Program-made: the position numbers and the translations under genes
Shown: piece after piece, positions 35,637 through 44,462 of the stretch
Layout: each line of letters opens with the position of its first letter
How positions within the stretch are numbered: the stretch's first letter is position 1
Sequence record: PX092659.1
Length of the DNA stretch: 64,000 bases
DNA from: a phage
Direction: 5' to 3' (one strand)
The notes under the pieces: generated by a model
Seen by the model: only the letters and a program-made list of their open reading frames with translations
The model's database searches: none
What the model was told of the DNA's origin: nothing

Positions 35637-35807
35637 ATGAAATCAGTTGTAATTATTGGTGTTAACACTCGCGGTATTCGTACTACGAAAACTGTTAAAA
35701 CTTCTAACATTGCTGAAATCACTACGAACCCTAAAAAGTTTGATTTCGCCAAAGTCTCAGCAGTTATGACAGAACAATCTTTTAACCAAGCATTGGGGAT
35801 GAAATAA
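35637..35807 (+). CDS. hypothetical small protein (56 aa, below track cutoff)
   Basis: ATG after GAGAGGAAGCGAAAT RBS; stop overlaps next start (TAATG). Confidence 0.4.
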   Translation: MKSVVIIGVNTRGIRTTKTVKTSNIAEITTNPKKFDFAKVSAVMTEQSFNQALGMK

Positions 35808-36265
35808 TGGGTGAAAATATTCTAATGACCCTTCGTGGACTGCTTAGTCTAGCACGTACTCACGGTGATAAGGAACGGGCACTTAATCTTCAGACCATGA
35901 TTGGTGATCTGCAACGTATTGATAAAGACATTGTTACTCGAACCGAGTTCGTAGCCTATCTGAAAGCTCAGATTAAGGCTCTAGAAAATGCAAAACAACG
36001 CGCTATTAAAGTTGGTACGGAAGTTCCTACCGATGTAGACTATGAGCAACTGCTTTATTCCATGCTGCAAGAGTATCAGCCAAGTCAACTTACTGAAACT
36101 GAAATTCGTGAGTATTTTGCAGAACTGGTTAAATTAAACCCAGGTATTACCAAAGCTCTATTAATGAAAACCATTAAGGCAGAATTTCCTGGACGTTATG
36201 ACGGTAAAACAACTGCTTTGATTGCTAGTGAATTTTTTAAAAATTCATTTGCTAAATGCTTATAA
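35807..36265 (+). CDS. hypothetical protein
   Basis: 152-aa track ORF. Confidence 0.5.
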   Translation: MGENILMTLRGLLSLARTHGDKERALNLQTMIGDLQRIDKDIVTRTEFVAYLKAQIKALENAKQRAIKVGTEVPTDVDYEQLLYSMLQEYQPSQLTETEIREYFAELVKLNPGITKALLMKTIKAEFPGRYDGKTTALIASEFFKNSFAKCL

Positions 36266-36277
36266 ATTCTGTATAAT
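36249..36277 (+). promoter_or_regulatory. sigma70-type early promoter: TTGCTA-N17-TATAAT, reads into an 810-nt ORF-free region
   Basis: Cassette match; no ORF of 60 aa or more and no convincing RBS-led small ORF until tRNA-Arg at 37090. Confidence 0.6.
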
Positions 36278-37046
36278 ATATTCATAAATTAGGGAACAGC
36301 GAGCCGATTACGCTGAACTTGTCTTAATGTAAGATGCGTCGAGCACTAAGATTCGTTGAATAGAGTCGGTGGGTTAGTTGTAAAACTAGTACACAGGGGG
36401 CGGCAATCCCGGTTAGTGGCTAGAACGTGTAAAATGAGGCGTCTGAAACCTCTCCCCTAAACTCTTCTCTAATTTATAAATAGTGGGGTGTGGAAATCAC
36501 TTATGTAGTAGCACTGCCGTCCTAGTATAATTGGTATTATCAAGCCGTAACTGGTGGAAGATGTAGGTTCGAATCTTACGGTCGGTAAGAACTGGATAAC
36601 TGATGCTTTTAACGTAAAAGCTTCCGAGGTTAGTTGCGCACTGCCTAAACCACGCGGTAGTTGGTTCCAGGCTAACCAACCAGTCTGCTGAATAGTTTTA
36701 TTACGATTTAACTATGTCCAGACTAAAGAAGAACTTTAGAAGGTATTCTAGGATAGTGAAGTTCTTTCTCCATATCGGAGTAGTTTTTCAAGCTATCCAC
36801 AAAGTGGGAAATGCTGACATGAGAGATGTCACTAATGGTGCACAATAGCACAGGTAATTCGCGATAACTCCTGTTGAGTAGCAGCAAAAGGCGGGAAGTC
36901 ATGACCCCAAGCCTAACCGAGTCCTCAATATACCGCAGGACATAACCACTAAGTCACCCTGACTTAAACTGGAAAATAATAGACGTTACTGTATTTTGTC
37001 TTGAAATACTTAATGAGTGAGACTTATGACTCTCCCGGTATCGTCT

Positions 37047-37084
37047 GTATTTTTAAGAGTTTTTACGAGAGTTCTTAAAAATAC
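37047..37084 (+). repeat. perfect 12-bp inverted repeat (GTATTTTTAAGA ... TCTTAAAAATAC) with 14-nt loop
   Basis: Read directly from sequence; sits 5 nt upstream of tRNA-Arg. Confidence 0.7.
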
Positions 37085-37089
37085 TTAAA

Positions 37090-37164
37090 CGGGGTGTAGT
37101 CTAAGGGAGAGGCAGGAGTCTTCTAAATTCCTTTATGCAGGTTCGAATCCTGTCACCTCGGCCA
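37090..37164 (+). tRNA. tRNA-Arg (anticodon TCT)
   Basis: Manual cloverleaf: acceptor CGGGGTG/CACCTCG, anticodon loop CTTCTAA, T-arm GCAGG-TTCGAAT-CCTGT, CCA encoded. Confidence 0.7.
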
Positions 37165-37198: not shown

Positions 37199-38146
37199 AT
37201 GTTTAATACTAAAAATATGAAAGAACTGACTTCTGAGCAGAAAGTAATTCGTACTATTAAACGTTGGGGTATTGGTGCTGTAGTTGGTTTAGCAGGCTTG
37301 ATTCTAGCCTTTAATTCATATACTATTGTTTCTGATGGTACGGTTAAAACTCAAACATTTCTGGGTAAAGTAGATCCTAACCCAGTATTACCAGGTTTCC
37401 ATCTTGTAAACCCCTTTGCATCTTTCGACACTTTTAGTACAAAAGATATTGCTGTAAAATTAGATAAACTTCAAGTTCCTAGTCAGGATAAATTTAAATC
37501 CACTGTTGACCTGACTGTTATGTTGCAGTTTGATGGTTCTAAGGCACCGATTAACCGTATTAATGCGGGTACTCAGGATCAAGCGTTAGACAAATATGTA
37601 ACTGAAAAATTACTGTCTACTATTCGTGAGTTTGGTAAGTCTGTACCTAAAGCACAAGATTTGTTTGATGCTAAAATTCAGGCTCAATTGCAAACTGCAA
37701 TTCAACAGGAAGTTGAAGAGTATGCACGCCCATATGGTTATACAGTTAAGCAGGTATTCCTTCAGGATATTACTTTGCCACCGGTAATCATGGAACAGGT
37801 ACAGAATACCAAAGTTCGTGAAGAACAGGTTAATGCTGCTAAAGCTGAATTAGCTCGTGTTGAACAGGAAGCACAGCAAAAAGTTAAACAAGCAGAAGCA
37901 GATCGCGAAGCTCGTAATAACCAAGCTATTGCCAATGAGCGTGACGCAGATGCCAAACTGTACGCAGCTAAGAAAGAAGCTGAAGCTAACGCCGCGTTGC
38001 AACGTACCATTACTCCTGAGATGATTCGCTGGAAGCAACTGGAAGTTGAAATGATTCGTGCTCAGAAATACCAAGGTGGTGTACCGCAGACTGTGGTTGG
38101 CACTGGCTATGATGGCCAAATGATTATGGATATGCGTAATAAATAA
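37199..38146 (+). CDS. SPFH/band-7 (prohibitin/HflC-like) membrane protein
   Basis: 315 aa; N-terminal TM helix (IGAVVGLAGLILAF), SPFH-like core, C-terminal Ala/Glu/Gln-rich coiled coil. Confidence 0.7.
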   Translation: MFNTKNMKELTSEQKVIRTIKRWGIGAVVGLAGLILAFNSYTIVSDGTVKTQTFLGKVDPNPVLPGFHLVNPFASFDTFSTKDIAVKLDKLQVPSQDKFKSTVDLTVMLQFDGSKAPINRINAGTQDQALDKYVTEKLLSTIREFGKSVPKAQDLFDAKIQAQLQTAIQQEVEEYARPYGYTVKQVFLQDITLPPVIMEQVQNTKVREEQVNAAKAELARVEQEAQQKVKQAEADREARNNQAIANERDADAKLYAAKKEAEANAALQRTITPEMIRWKQLEVEMIRAQKYQGGVPQTVVGTGYDGQMIMDMRNK

Positions 38147-38170
38147 TACCCGCATGTAACATCTGAAATA

Positions 38171-38205
38171 AGCCCTGCGTTTCCTGGAGAGCGCAGGGCT
38201 TTTCT
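38171..38205 (+). terminator. rho-independent terminator
   Basis: AGCCCTGCG ... CGCAGGGCT stem followed by TTTTCTG. Confidence 0.75.
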
Positions 38206-43463: not shown

Positions 43464-43565
43464 AATTCTGTGTAGAGTTAAGTAAACCGGTAGCCAACCA
43501 GCTATCATTGCTGACATCGAATTCAGCCACAGATACCATTTTCATTAATAACTGAGGAAACAAGC

Positions 43566-43837: not shown

Positions 43838-44013
43838 AATAAGGTAGGTTAGCTATGGAATGTAGGGAGTTTACTCCAGAAGAGATAGAGCAGATAAAAG
43901 AATCTGCTATGAAAAATGCTAGAATATCTCTGTCACTGGAAGGTATCATTATTAGTGATGTAAACTTTGAAAAAATCAAAGCCATAGCTGATGAACTGGA
44001 AAAGTAATTTAAT

Positions 44014-44089
44014 ACATCCATAGCTCAATGGTTAGAGCTACCGCCTCTTAAGCGGAGGGTTCTAGGTTCAAGTCCTAGTGGGTGTACCA
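44014..44089 (+). tRNA. tRNA-Lys (anticodon CTT)
   Basis: Acceptor ACATCCA/TGGGTGT, D-arm GCTCAATGGTTAGAGC, anticodon loop CTCTTAA, T-arm CTAGG-TTCAAGT-CCTAG. Confidence 0.65.
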
Positions 44090-44114
44090 AATTAATTTAG
44101 TATGAGAATATACT

Positions 44115-44462
44115 ATGCGTAATGCTAAAGAAGAGCTGTTACTCGCCTTAAAAAATACCAATTCTAAAGTTAAGTGTATTAAAATAGAATTTGGGTATTA
44201 TGGGGACAAAAAAGTCTGGGTATTACCTTTAGGTTATACAGAAGAAGACATTGAGGGGTTTCTTAATAACCTAGACTTTGAATATGATTCTGGATACGGT
44301 GGACAATTACTTTATGGTAATGTATGGTTTGCCGATGGAACTTGGCTAGAACGTGGGGAATATGATGGTGCTGAGTGGTGGGAATACAAGGCTACACCAG
44401 CAATCCCAGAGGAATGCCGAACAATTAATGGTGAAGTAGATAATACTTTACGGTTAAACTAA
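44115..44462 (+). CDS. hypothetical protein
   Basis: 115-aa track ORF. Confidence 0.5.
   Translation: MRNAKEELLLALKNTNSKVKCIKIEFGYYGDKKVWVLPLGYTEEDIEGFLNNLDFEYDSGYGGQLLYGNVWFADGTWLERGEYDGAEWWEYKATPAIPEECRTINGEVDNTLRLN

What the first reader, a model, noticed from the sequence alone, without database searches (positions are those of the whole stretch)
36278..37089. Promoter-driven 810-nt ORF-free stretch ending at tRNA-Arg
A cassette promoter (36249-36277) fires into a region with no ORF of 60 aa or more and no RBS-led small ORF, yet rich in hairpins: a T-arm-like GTAGG-TTCGAAT-CTTAC (about 36563-36581) without a matching acceptor stem, a 7-bp palindrome GCTTTTA-acg-TAAAAGC (about 36605-36621), AGTTGGTT/AACCAACC (about 36658-36683) and the 12-bp inverted repeat before tRNA-Arg. 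It is likely a long structured precursor with tRNA relics or an unannotated ncRNA.
Basis: seen in the sequence. Interest (0 to 1): 0.5.

Follow-up and report, generated by a model that had tools for sequence, protein, structure and literature searches.

The report
Large structured phage RNA (T5 RNAX)
The gene-free 0.8 kb stretch is the T5-phage "RNAX" gene: a large, intricately folded non-coding RNA with a built-in tRNA-shaped module, conserved across T5-like phages, with no function known and no structural description found.

Summary
A sigma-70 promoter at 36249-36277 reads into about 810 nt with no conserved ORF, ending at tRNA-Arg (37090).

This locus is already annotated in two GenBank T5-family records as misc_RNA "RNAX", a "stable RNA with unknown functions". 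It has no Rfam family, and I found no paper describing it.

Comparison across five genera of Demerecviridae shows a non-coding RNA under structural selection:
- Substitutions show no codon periodicity, and most indels are not multiples of three.
- Helices carry many compensatory changes. In domain I, 94% of cells pair, against 28-44% when partners are slid, and 19 pairs have double changes.

The "T-arm" belongs to a complete tRNA-like cloverleaf at 36516-36587:
- Its flanks pair into a 12-bp extension, so its ends are not free.
- Its "anticodon" hairpin is degenerate. It is neither a decoder nor a decaying relic.

Other conserved parts are a 5' closing helix, a hairpin displaying the palindrome UCAUGA, and an 18-bp 3' hairpin.

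The closest analogues are the large phage RNAs GOLLD and ROOL, found near tRNA islands, but their Rfam models do not match. Function is unknown. The segment of T5 deleted in the st0 mutant includes RNAX.

The parts
36249..36277 (+). Sigma-70 promoter (-35 TTGCTA, 17-nt spacer, -10 TATAAT), equivalent to T5 promoter P16-17. It lies in the 3' end of the upstream YqeY-like gene.
   Evidence: 10/12 match; annotated as promoter P16-17 in AY734508 and as 'P16-17-like' in S114. The same cassette is found in DU_PP_V and My1.
36284..37089 (+). RNAX: about 806-nt non-coding transcript body. The start is predicted about 7 nt after the -10 box and is not mapped. The 3' end is taken as the RNase P site at tRNA-Arg +1.
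   Evidence: Annotated as rnaX in T5 and DT571/2. No coding signal. Conserved in 525 phage records.
36286..36475 (+). 5' domain closed by helix P0 (AAATTAGGGAA 36286-36296 with TTCTCTAATTT 36465-36475). It contains a conserved first hairpin, CAGCG-AGCCGATTA-CGCTG, at 36297-36315. The interior is hypervariable.
   Evidence: P0 is recovered by MFE folding. P0 survives in T5 although the interior is deleted. The first hairpin is CAGCA/TGCTG in Pectobacterium and Proteus phages, a compensatory change. The interior is replaced by an HNH gene in MET_P1, mar003J3 and gmork.
36483..36653 (+). Domain I, closed by helix P1 (GUGGGGUG 36483-36490 with UGCC 36642-36645 and CCAC 36650-36653).
   Evidence: GUGG/CCAC is paired in 100% of cells, and becomes ACGG/CCGU in Pectobacterium phages. 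Covariance model R1 finds this domain in Stubb and GSW6, which were not used to build it.
36496..36604 (+). Helix P-ext: 5' flank 36496-36509 pairs with 3' flank 36591-36604. This 12-bp helix extends the acceptor stem of the tRNA-like module.
   Evidence: 12 pairs, 8 with changes on both sides, 98% of cells paired. Variants include UAGU/ACUG, UGAU/AUCA, UAAC/GUUG, UAGC/GCUA.
36516..36587 (+). tRNA-like cloverleaf. Acceptor 36516-36522 / 36580-36586; D arm with a GG loop; T arm 36563-36579; short 'anticodon' hairpin with a 6-nt loop.
   Evidence: Rfam tRNA 30.7 bits. ARAGORN does not call it here, and calls it Ser(act) or SeC(tca) in relatives. Stems covary. The loop is 3 nt in Pectobacterium phages. 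The module is replaced by a plain hairpin in Stubb and lost in GSW6.
36605..36621 (+). Hairpin GCUUUUA-ACG-UAAAAGC.
   Evidence: Covaries: U-A, A-U and C-G at the fifth pair, C-G to G-C at the second.
36657..36684 (+). Hairpin GUUGGUU / AACCAAC.
   Evidence: 83% of cells paired. GSW6 has G-C changed to A-U. Support is weaker: the +1 slide gives 68%.
36890..36913 (+). Hairpin displaying the near-invariant loop AAGUCAUGA. It contains the palindrome UCAUGA at 36899-36904 (GTCATGAC 36898-36905).
   Evidence: the motif falls in an apical loop in most independent single-sequence folds, spanning all five genera. In three sequences (L003, L081, L092) the local MFE does not show this hairpin. The outer stem covaries (AGGC/GCCU, AGAC/GUCU, GUGAC/GUCAC). 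Also.
36921..36941 (+). Hairpin GUCCU...AGGAC.
   Evidence: All five pairs show compensatory variants.
36944..36974 (+). Conserved island AACCAC-UA-AGUCA-CCC-UGACU-UAAACUGGAA, containing a 5-6 bp hairpin at 36951-36965.
   Evidence: It is duplicated in T5 around an 87-nt insertion.
36980..37045 (+). Three-way junction closed by AGACGUUAC / GUAUCGUCU.
   Evidence: The same design is recovered by independent folds of window, mar003J3, S114 and MET_P1, whose closing helices have different sequences. In STWB21 and S132 the MFE folds this segment differently, and 26175I and GSW6 recover it only partly. Alignment.
37046..37085 (+). Terminal 18-pair hairpin, 4 nt upstream of tRNA-Arg.
   Evidence: 95% of cells paired, 97.6% in held-out Klebsiella and Pectobacterium phages. 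The sequence is nearly invariant: 92.9% identity over 42 nt to DU_PP_V. No U-tract follows, so it is not called a terminator.
37090..37164 (+). tRNA-Arg(UCU), co-transcribed downstream of RNAX.
   Evidence: 49.3 bits. No promoter or terminator lies between the two.
37199..38201 (+). Rest of the inferred transcription unit: SPFH/Band-7 gene 37199-38146 and intrinsic terminator 38170-38201.
   Evidence: T5 annotates the terminator as ter1.

Best explanation
The stretch is the gene for RNAX, a roughly 0.8-kb non-coding RNA of T5-like phages (Demerecviridae).

Shown here:
- It is not protein-coding.
- It is conserved in 525 phage records.
- It folds into a multi-domain structure maintained by compensatory substitutions.
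- The domains are: a 5' domain closed by helix P0; domain I closed by P1, carrying a 12-bp helix tipped by a tRNA-like cloverleaf; a central variable region; a hairpin presenting the palindromic loop UCAUGA; a three-way junction; and an 18-bp terminal hairpin.

Inferred:
- It is transcribed by host RNA polymerase from promoter P16-17, as the first part of a unit RNAX - tRNA-Arg - SPFH gene - terminator.
- RNase P cutting at tRNA-Arg +1 releases it.
- Both ends are then locked in helices (P0 and the terminal hairpin), which would explain the record's description of it as a 'stable RNA'.

Most likely mode of action (low confidence): a trans-acting RNA scaffold of the same general kind as the large phage RNAs GOLLD and ROOL.
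- It would present a tRNA-shaped module (acceptor/T-arm/elbow intact, anticodon loop absent, ends closed) to a tRNA-binding factor.
- It may self-associate through the palindromic loop.
- It would serve an accessory role, such as host range, translation or counter-defence, within the phage's dispensable tRNA island.
For: Identity:
- T5 AY734508 and DT571/2 KM979355 annotate the interval from promoter P16-17 to tRNA-Arg as misc_RNA rnaX. They are 92.5-95.9% identical to the window over the part of the query they cover (78%).

Non-coding:
- No conserved ORF.
- Substitutions are flat over the three codon phases (p 0.41-0.89), and most indels are not multiples of three. The flanking SPFH and YqeY genes give p from 2e-3 to 1e-26 with only in-frame indels.

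Structure:
- Domain I has 35 pairs with 94.4% of cells paired, against 28-44% when partners are slid.
- 19 of those pairs have double changes, against 1-5 in slid controls, and 0 of 500 shuffles reach the observed value.
- The domain I structure derived from Markadamsvirinae holds in held-out Klebsiella and Pectobacterium phages: 83.5% against 34-42%.
- The 3' domain is 84% paired against 35-44%, with 33 double-change pairs against 7-16.
- A covariance model of domain I finds untrained homologues in Proteus phage Stubb (62.6 bits, E 1.5e-14) and GSW6 (80 bits).

Strand:
- G-U cells outnumber A-C cells 270 to 65.
- Consensus energy is -160 kcal/mol for the + strand and -137 for the - strand.

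Independence from tRNA-Arg:
- Mobile nuclease or other ORFs are inserted between the terminal hairpin and tRNA-Arg in Epseptimavirus, Gostya9, My1 and Klebsiella phages, and RNAX stays intact.

Context:
- GOLLD and ROOL are large phage RNAs 'often near tRNA islands', and tRNAs are sometimes embedded in GOLLD (PMC12286853).
- The T5 tRNA region tolerates deletions and carries counter-defence tRNAs (PMC11464382).
- The segment deleted in T5 st0 includes RNAX.
Against: - I have no expression, end-mapping or abundance data. 'Stable RNA' is only a database note.
- Thermodynamic stability is no better than shuffled sequence: z -1.05 for the whole RNA, +0.91 for domain I.
- The central and 3' structure is less certain. 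Held-out pairing there is only 55.6% against 33-44%, and RNAalifold and local folds disagree on which strand pairs with 37040-37044.
- The tRNA-like module is missing in GSW6 and Stubb, so it cannot be the core of the function.
- The 5' domain is deleted in T5, DT571/2 and AKFV33.
- The palindromic loop is invariant, so pairing through it cannot be tested by covariation. My1 has GUCAUGCC.
- Rfam GOLLD and ROOL models do not match.
- No partner or phenotype is known.
Confidence: 0.7

Rival explanations
1. It is only a cis-acting 5' leader or spacer of the tRNA-Arg / SPFH transcript. On this view its structure serves processing or transcript stability, and it has no function once cut off.
For: No promoter or terminator separates it from tRNA-Arg and the SPFH gene, so tRNA-Arg expression depends on transcription through it. 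The terminal hairpin lies 4 nt from the RNase P site.
Against: A leader does not need 600-850 nt of covarying multi-domain structure kept across five genera. In many relatives 0.5-kb ORFs separate RNAX from tRNA-Arg without any erosion of RNAX.
Confidence: 0.15
2. It is a graveyard of decayed tRNA genes.
For: It sits at the head of a 24-tRNA island. One element reaches the Rfam tRNA threshold. Annotators call it tRNA-OTHER, pseudo or Sec.
Against: There is only one tRNA-like element. Its stems are kept by compensatory changes, not eroded. Its flanks covary as an extension helix. It is no closer to any of the phage's tRNAs (72% at most) than those tRNAs are to each other (median 65%, maximum 79%). 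The rest of the RNA has its own conserved helices.
Confidence: 0.03
3. It acts at the DNA level, for example as homing-endonuclease target sites, a recombination cassette or a replication/nick signal, rather than as RNA.
For: HNH and T5orf172/MUG113 nuclease genes are inserted exactly at its two borders. The terminal hairpin and the GTCATGAC palindrome are conserved in sequence rather than by covariation.
Against: Compensatory changes that keep pairing, with a strong G-U over A-C bias on the + strand (270 to 65), are a signature of RNA, not of protein-binding DNA. T5's annotated nick lies elsewhere. DNA-level roles for the two invariant elements could coexist with the RNA.
Confidence: 0.07
4. 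It encodes one or more small proteins.
For: Small ORFs of 23-45 aa exist on the + strand, and ORFs of 59-60 aa on the - strand. Some records annotate hypothetical proteins here.
Against: None of these ORFs is conserved. There is no codon periodicity, and frameshifting indels are frequent.
Confidence: 0.02

Closest known systems
T5 'RNAX' (misc_RNA rnaX in GenBank AY734508 and KM979355)
   Same: Same locus, bounds and sequence. It runs from promoter P16-17 to tRNA-Arg and is 92.5-95.9% identical to the window over the part of the query it covers (78%).
   Different: The window's copy is about 90-170 nt longer, because it keeps the 5' domain interior (about 36296-36460) that T5 and DT571/2 have lost. 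The records give no structure or function.
GOLLD and ROOL (large 'ornate' phage/prophage RNAs)
   Same: They are 0.5-0.9 kb, non-coding and multi-domain with covariation. They are phage-encoded at tRNA islands, non-essential, and of unknown function. GOLLD sometimes has tRNAs embedded in a variable 5' part (PMC12286853). RNAX likewise has a variable 5' part, a conserved core and a tRNA-shaped insert.
   Different: There is no match to any Rfam family other than tRNA, at E up to 10 in the window and E up to 1 in relatives. The hosts are Enterobacterales phages of one family. The embedded element is a closed tRNA mimic, not a real tRNA. Oligomerisation is untested.
Genuine tRNA / tRNA pseudogene
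   Same: Cloverleaf with acceptor, D, T and anticodon-like arms, a GG D-loop and a UUCGAAU T-loop. It reaches the Rfam gathering score.
   Different: The 'anticodon' loop is 6 nt here, 3 nt in Pectobacterium phages, or sits on an extended stem in some Klebsiella phages. There is no CCA and no free ends, because the flanks form a 12-bp helix. U5-U68 and G1-A/U72 mismatches are conserved.
tRNA-like modules inside larger RNAs (MALAT1 mascRNA, bacterial YrlA Y-RNA-like RNAs, tmRNA tRNA-like domain). This comparison is from my own knowledge, apart from a paper title seen.
   Same: A tRNA 'top half' is embedded in a longer RNA. Leader-trailer pairing that extends the acceptor stem is also described for MALAT1 (PMC8457004, title and abstract listed).
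   Different: No Rfam hit to YrlA, tmRNA or related families. Whether RNase P excises the module is unknown.
T4 stable RNAs C and D (species 1 and 2) in the T4 tRNA cluster. This comparison is from my own knowledge and was not tested here.
   Same: Phage-encoded stable RNAs of unknown function that are co-transcribed with tRNAs and lie in a dispensable tRNA region.
   Different: The T4 RNAs are small, roughly 100-140 nt. RNAX is 5-8 times larger and multi-domain. No sequence comparison was made.

Membership tests
T5 RNAX (GenBank misc_RNA) | Lies between promoter P16-17 and tRNA-Arg(UCU), downstream of the YqeY-like gene and upstream of the SPFH gene | tested here: met
   same order and same bounds.
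T5 RNAX (GenBank misc_RNA) | Sequence homology to the annotated rnaX | tested here: met
   92.5% (T5) and 95.9% (DT571/2) identity over query positions 183-812. Model R1 scores 171.6 bits in T5 and 169.3 bits in the window.
T5 RNAX (GenBank misc_RNA) | Accumulates as a stable RNA in infected cells | not testable with these tools
   The only support is the record note 'stable RNA with unknown functions'. No paper was found.
tRNA (Rfam RF00005) | Cloverleaf reaching the family's gathering score | tested here: met
   30.7 bits against a gathering score of 29, at 36516-36587.
tRNA (Rfam RF00005) | Seven-nucleotide anticodon loop with a stable anticodon identity | tested here: not met
   The loop is 6 nt here, 3 nt in DU_PP_V and My1, and sits on an inserted stem in Roth39. 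ARAGORN gives no call here, and Ser(act) or SeC(tca) elsewhere.
tRNA (Rfam RF00005) | Free acceptor end (single-stranded leader/trailer, discriminator base and CCA) | tested here: not met
   The flanks form a covarying 12-bp helix. No CCA follows position 36586.
GOLLD / ROOL | Match to the family's covariance model | tested here: not met
   No hit at E up to 10 in the window or at E up to 1 in seven relatives.
GOLLD / ROOL | Large (over 500 nt) non-coding RNA with covariation-supported multi-domain structure | tested here: met
GOLLD / ROOL | Phage-encoded, at a tRNA island | tested here: met
   24 tRNAs downstream; description of the families.
GOLLD / ROOL | Homo-oligomeric assembly (nanocage) | not testable with these tools
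   The only lead is the conserved palindromic apical loop UCAUGA.
Protein-coding gene | Conserved reading frame with third-position substitution bias | tested here: not met
Intrinsic terminator (for the 3' hairpin) | G+C-rich stem followed by a U-tract | tested here: not met
   The stem is A+U-rich and is followed by CUUAAAC. The scan did not report it.

The most novel reading that the evidence does not exclude
RNAX is a third, independent class of giant 'ornate' phage RNA, alongside GOLLD and ROOL. On this reading it self-assembles through its invariant palindromic loop (UCAUGA) and displays a closed tRNA mimic at the tip of a long helix. It would act as an RNA-only or RNA-protein particle that engages tRNA-recognising machinery during infection, such as processing or modification enzymes or tRNA-targeting defence nucleases. 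Because it sits in phage T5 and E. coli, the unsolved question of what such RNAs do would become genetically testable.
Probability: 0.2. Interest if true: 0.85.

Novelty: new variant of a known kind. Interest (0 to 1): 0.6.

Why it matters
Large structured RNAs at phage tRNA islands (GOLLD, ROOL) have striking three-dimensional assemblies, but no known function, and they occur in hosts that are hard to manipulate.

RNAX has sat in two GenBank records as an unexplained label. The evidence here shows it is a comparable object: 0.6-0.9 kb, multi-domain, covarying, carrying a tRNA-shaped insert and non-essential. It occurs in the classical E. coli phage T5 and in hundreds of sequenced relatives used in phage therapy and food safety.

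- It gives the field a tractable model, with existing T5 deletion collections and E. coli RNase mutants.
- It corrects widespread mis-annotation of this locus as spurious tRNA-Sec, tRNA-OTHER and hypothetical proteins.
- It adds a candidate family to RNA databases.

Tried and rejected
- Thermodynamic stability as evidence. z-scores were -1.05 (+ strand), -1.24 (- strand) and +0.91 (domain I), which is uninformative. I relied on covariation instead.
- Rfam at permissive thresholds, on the window and on relatives. Only tRNA hits appeared.
- Literature. No paper in the searchable library contains both 'RNAX' and 'bacteriophage T5'. Searches for T5 RNA-seq and for Tequintavirus or Demerecviridae ncRNA found nothing on this locus. 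Glukhov et al. 2018 (PubMed 29512629) is not held.
- Homologues outside Demerecviridae. An 18-base pattern scan of metagenome and bacterial-genome collections gave only T5-like contigs as true hits, and none in bacterial genomes. The first, 14-base pattern gave mostly chance hits.
- Long-range pairing of GGGGUG (36485-36490) with CACCCU (36954-36959). I dropped this because P1 (GUGG/CCAC) has compensatory support in Pectobacterium phages, whereas CACCCU is absent there and lies in a local hairpin.
- A possible link between the 'anticodon' loop GUAAC and GUUAC at 36985-36989. I compared this by eye against the alignment: the Epseptimavirus loop variant has no matching partner there. I treated it as chance.
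- A second RNAX-like domain elsewhere in the window. None was found. The weaker R1 hits checked fall on tRNA genes listed; a few hits with E above 0.5 were not examined.
- The tRNA-like module as a recent copy of one of the phage's tRNAs. Rejected.
- The YqeY-like upstream gene as an obligate partner. The Pfam match is weak (20.8 bits, below the cut-off of 27), and the gene is not adjacent in Klebsiella phages. I kept it only as a lead.
Full report
**What is there**

The window is a T5-like phage (Tequintavirus, Demerecviridae). The interval is 98-99% identical to phages such as NBSal005, phiLLS and oldekolle.

- A sigma-70 promoter, TTGCTA-17-TATAAT, lies at 36249-36277.
- tRNA-Arg(UCU) starts at 37090. 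It is the first of 24 tRNA genes.
- Between the two, the + strand has no ORF longer than 45 aa.
- The simple scan finds no promoter or terminator before the hairpin at 38170-38201, which lies after the SPFH/Band-7 gene.
- I therefore infer one transcription unit: promoter - 0.8 kb ORF-free RNA - tRNA-Arg - SPFH gene - terminator.

**It already has a name**

- T5 record AY734508 annotates the homologous interval as misc_RNA 'rnaX / RNAX'. That feature runs from 'promoter P16-17' to tRNA-Arg.
- DT571/2 record KM979355 calls it 'stable RNA with unknown functions'.
- Most other records leave the interval empty. Others place a tRNA-OTHER, tRNA-Sec, tRNA-Leu or hypothetical CDS inside it.
- AY734508 is the 8.2-kb segment missing from the T5 st0 deletion mutant.
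- T5 tRNA-region deletions are described as non-essential (PMC11464382).
- I found no paper in the searchable library that mentions RNAX, and Rfam 15 has no family for it.

**It is not coding**

- The only recurrent ORF is a 60-aa TTG frame on the minus strand, over the tRNA-like element. It is absent in S114 and pork29.
- In pairwise comparisons with relatives, substitutions are spread evenly over the three phases (p 0.41-0.89). Most indels are not multiples of three.
- The flanking SPFH and YqeY-like genes, compared with the same genomes, give p from 2e-3 to 1e-26 and only in-frame indels.

**It is conserved and modular**

blastn finds the region in 525 phage records. I assembled 21 representatives with pairwise identity of 47-99%. 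They cover:
- Tequintavirus and Epseptimavirus;
- Klebsiella Sugarlandvirus;
- Pectobacterium Myunavirus and Hongcheonvirus.

Proteus phage Stubb (Novosibvirus) also has a recognisable homologue.

Short invariant islands occur in the same order in Tequinta-, Epseptima- and Sugarlandvirus. Pectobacterium and Proteus phages keep only some of them. Variable hairpins lie between the islands. Examples of the islands:
- GUGGGGUG
- CACUGCC
- AAAGA..GAUAAC
- AAACCAC
- AUCGGAG
- GGAGUCAUGACC
- AGUCACCYUGACU-UAAACUGGAA
- the 3' hairpin

Whole modules come and go:
- The interior of the 5' domain (about 36296-36460) is deleted in T5, DT571/2 and AKFV33.
- It is replaced by an HNH endonuclease gene in MET_P1, mar003J3 and gmork.
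- It is enlarged in S132 and STWB21.
- Mobile nuclease genes (T5orf172/MUG113) or other ORFs sit between the 3' hairpin and tRNA-Arg in Gostya9, My1, several Epseptimaviruses and the Klebsiella phages.

RNAX stays intact when it is separated from tRNA-Arg. This argues that it is a functional unit in its own right.

**Structure of domain I (36483-36653)**

RNAalifold and pair counting on a 14-sequence alignment gave the following for 35 pairs:

| Measure | Observed | Control |
|---|---|---|
| Cells forming a standard pair | 94.4% | 28-44% with partners slid 1-3 columns |
| Pairs with changes on both sides | 19 | 1-5 in slid controls |
| Shuffles reaching the observed values | 0 of 500 | - |

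- A structure derived from Markadamsvirinae alone is kept in held-out Klebsiella and Pectobacterium phages: 83.5% against 34-42%.
- A covariance model of the domain finds Stubb (62.6 bits, E 1.5e-14) and GSW6 (80 bits). Neither was used to build the model. It finds only one copy in the window.

The domain is built as follows:
- It is closed by P1: GUGG/CCAC, which becomes ACGG/CCGU in Pectobacterium phages.
- It carries a 12-bp helix (36496-36509 with 36591-36604). Eight of its twelve pairs show compensatory change.
- That helix is tipped by the tRNA-like cloverleaf.

**The tRNA-like module (36516-36587)**

- It reaches the Rfam tRNA threshold: 30.7 bits against 29.
- It has a 7-bp acceptor stem, with conserved U5-U68 and G1-A/U72 mismatches.
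- It has a D arm with the GG loop, and a canonical T arm.
- Compensatory changes occur in all four stems.

It is not a decoder:
- The 'anticodon' hairpin has a 6-nt loop here, a 3-nt loop in Pectobacterium phages, and an inserted 5-bp stem with a tetraloop in some Klebsiella phages.
- ARAGORN's assignments are inconsistent.
- There is no CCA.
- The flanks pair, so the ends are closed.

It is not a recent copy of any of the phage's tRNAs. It is optional: Stubb has a plain hairpin at the same helix tip, and GSW6 has lost the module. So it is a selected peripheral module. It is neither a relic nor the core of the RNA.

**The rest of the RNA**

- P0 pairs the first nucleotides of the transcript (36286-36296) with 36465-36475. 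It is recovered by MFE folding. It has one compensatory pair in Pectobacterium phages, and it is kept in T5 after the internal deletion.
- The first hairpin (36297-36315) covaries: CAGCG/CGCUG against CAGCA/UGCUG.
- The 3' half is 84% paired, against 35-44% when slid. It has 33 double-change pairs against 7-16.
- Held-out support for the 3' half is weak (55.6%), and some long-range pairs are uncertain.

Well-supported local elements in the 3' half:
- The hairpin at 36921-36941, where all five pairs are compensatory.
- A three-way junction at 36980-37045. Independent folds of four lineages recover it, and their closing helices have different sequences.
- The 18-pair terminal hairpin, 95-98% paired.

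A hairpin at 36890-36913 presents the near-invariant loop (A/G)AGUCAUGA. Its outer stem covaries. The loop contains the palindrome UCAUGA, which makes it a candidate loop-loop self-association site. This is an inference and is untested.

G-U pairs outnumber A-C cells 270 to 65, and the + strand consensus is more stable than the - strand. This fits an RNA transcribed from the + strand.

**How it most likely works**

Shown: a conserved, non-coding, multi-domain RNA gene.

Inferred:
- It is transcribed early from P16-17.
- RNase P, cutting at tRNA-Arg +1, makes its 3' end.
- P0 and the terminal hairpin protect its two ends.

Speculative (about 0.2-0.3):
- It acts in trans as a scaffold that shows a closed tRNA 'top half' to a tRNA-binding factor, and may oligomerise.
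- This would be an accessory function of the tRNA island. That region of T5 is known to hold counter-defence tRNAs (preprint listed).

**Comparison with known families**

The nearest known kind is the group of giant phage RNAs GOLLD and ROOL. They are large, ornate and found near tRNA islands, tRNAs are sometimes embedded in GOLLD, and their function is unknown.
- RNAX shares these properties.
- It fails the membership test for both families, because there is no covariance-model match.
- I therefore treat it as a separate class of the same kind.
- The existence of the gene was already recorded in GenBank. Its structure, its family-wide distribution and the nature of the tRNA-like module were not described in any paper I could search.

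**Verdict**

- Interest is moderate to high for RNA and phage specialists. The main limit is the complete absence of expression and functional data here.

Noticed in passing
window 43466-43538: Sequence identical to the 73-nt 'RNA3' misc_RNA that the T5 record annotates directly after tRNA-Asn. This is another small stable RNA of unknown function, and ARAGORN does not call it.
   Followed up: partly
L095 3138-3704 (Gostya9); L093 4700-5245 (My1): A T5orf172/MUG113-domain (GIY-YIG-like) ORF of 181-188 aa is inserted exactly between the RNAX terminal hairpin and tRNA-Arg, in two different subfamilies. This junction looks like a hotspot for mobile nuclease genes.
   Followed up: partly
L004 1787-2296 (also L005, L006, L089, L090, L091): A 169-aa ORF with no Pfam match occupies the same hairpin/tRNA-Arg junction in several Epseptimaviruses. 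Its third-position variation suggests it is a real gene of unknown function.
   Followed up: partly
L004 717-1199 (also L088, L091, L081): An HNH endonuclease gene (HNH_3, E 2.6e-12) replaces the whole 5' domain of RNAX immediately after the promoter. In these phages the RNAX core must be processed out of an mRNA.
   Followed up: partly
L002 about 817-917 (T5): T5 has an 87-nt insertion flanked by a direct repeat of AGTCACCTTGAC(T/A)TAAACTGGAA, which duplicates a conserved RNAX island.
   Followed up: no
window 35807-36265: The upstream 152-aa YqeY-like gene is mosaic. It is only about 57% identical to the gene in phages whose RNAX is 98-99% identical, which implies a recombination break at the promoter cassette. 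The YqeY Pfam match is weak (20.8 bits, cut-off 27). YqeY domains bind tRNA in GatB (from my own knowledge), so the protein is a possible partner for RNAX.
   Followed up: partly
L098 239-398 and L122 (human-gut metagenome contigs): A recombinant domain I: the 5' half is of Tequintavirus type and the 3' half of Epseptimavirus type, with the junction in the T-loop. This leaves an A-C mismatch in the T stem.
   Followed up: no
L009 2043-2800 (Klebsiella phage Roth39); L009 1606-1907: Several annotated 'hypothetical protein' CDSs lie on top of the conserved RNAX core or its 5' domain and are probably spurious. Other records call the tRNA-like module tRNA-Sec(tca) or tRNA-Leu.
   Followed up: partly
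   Followed up: no
window 43985-44130: Model R1 gives a full-length 28.7-bit hit around tRNA-Lys(ctt). Folding shows only a 6-bp A+U-rich leader-trailer pairing, which is probably trivial.
   Followed up: yes
L137 709-857 (metagenome contig OLXE01000031): A Tequintavirus-type RNAX in which most of the D arm of the tRNA-like module is deleted. This is a third independent way of losing or altering the module.
   Followed up: no
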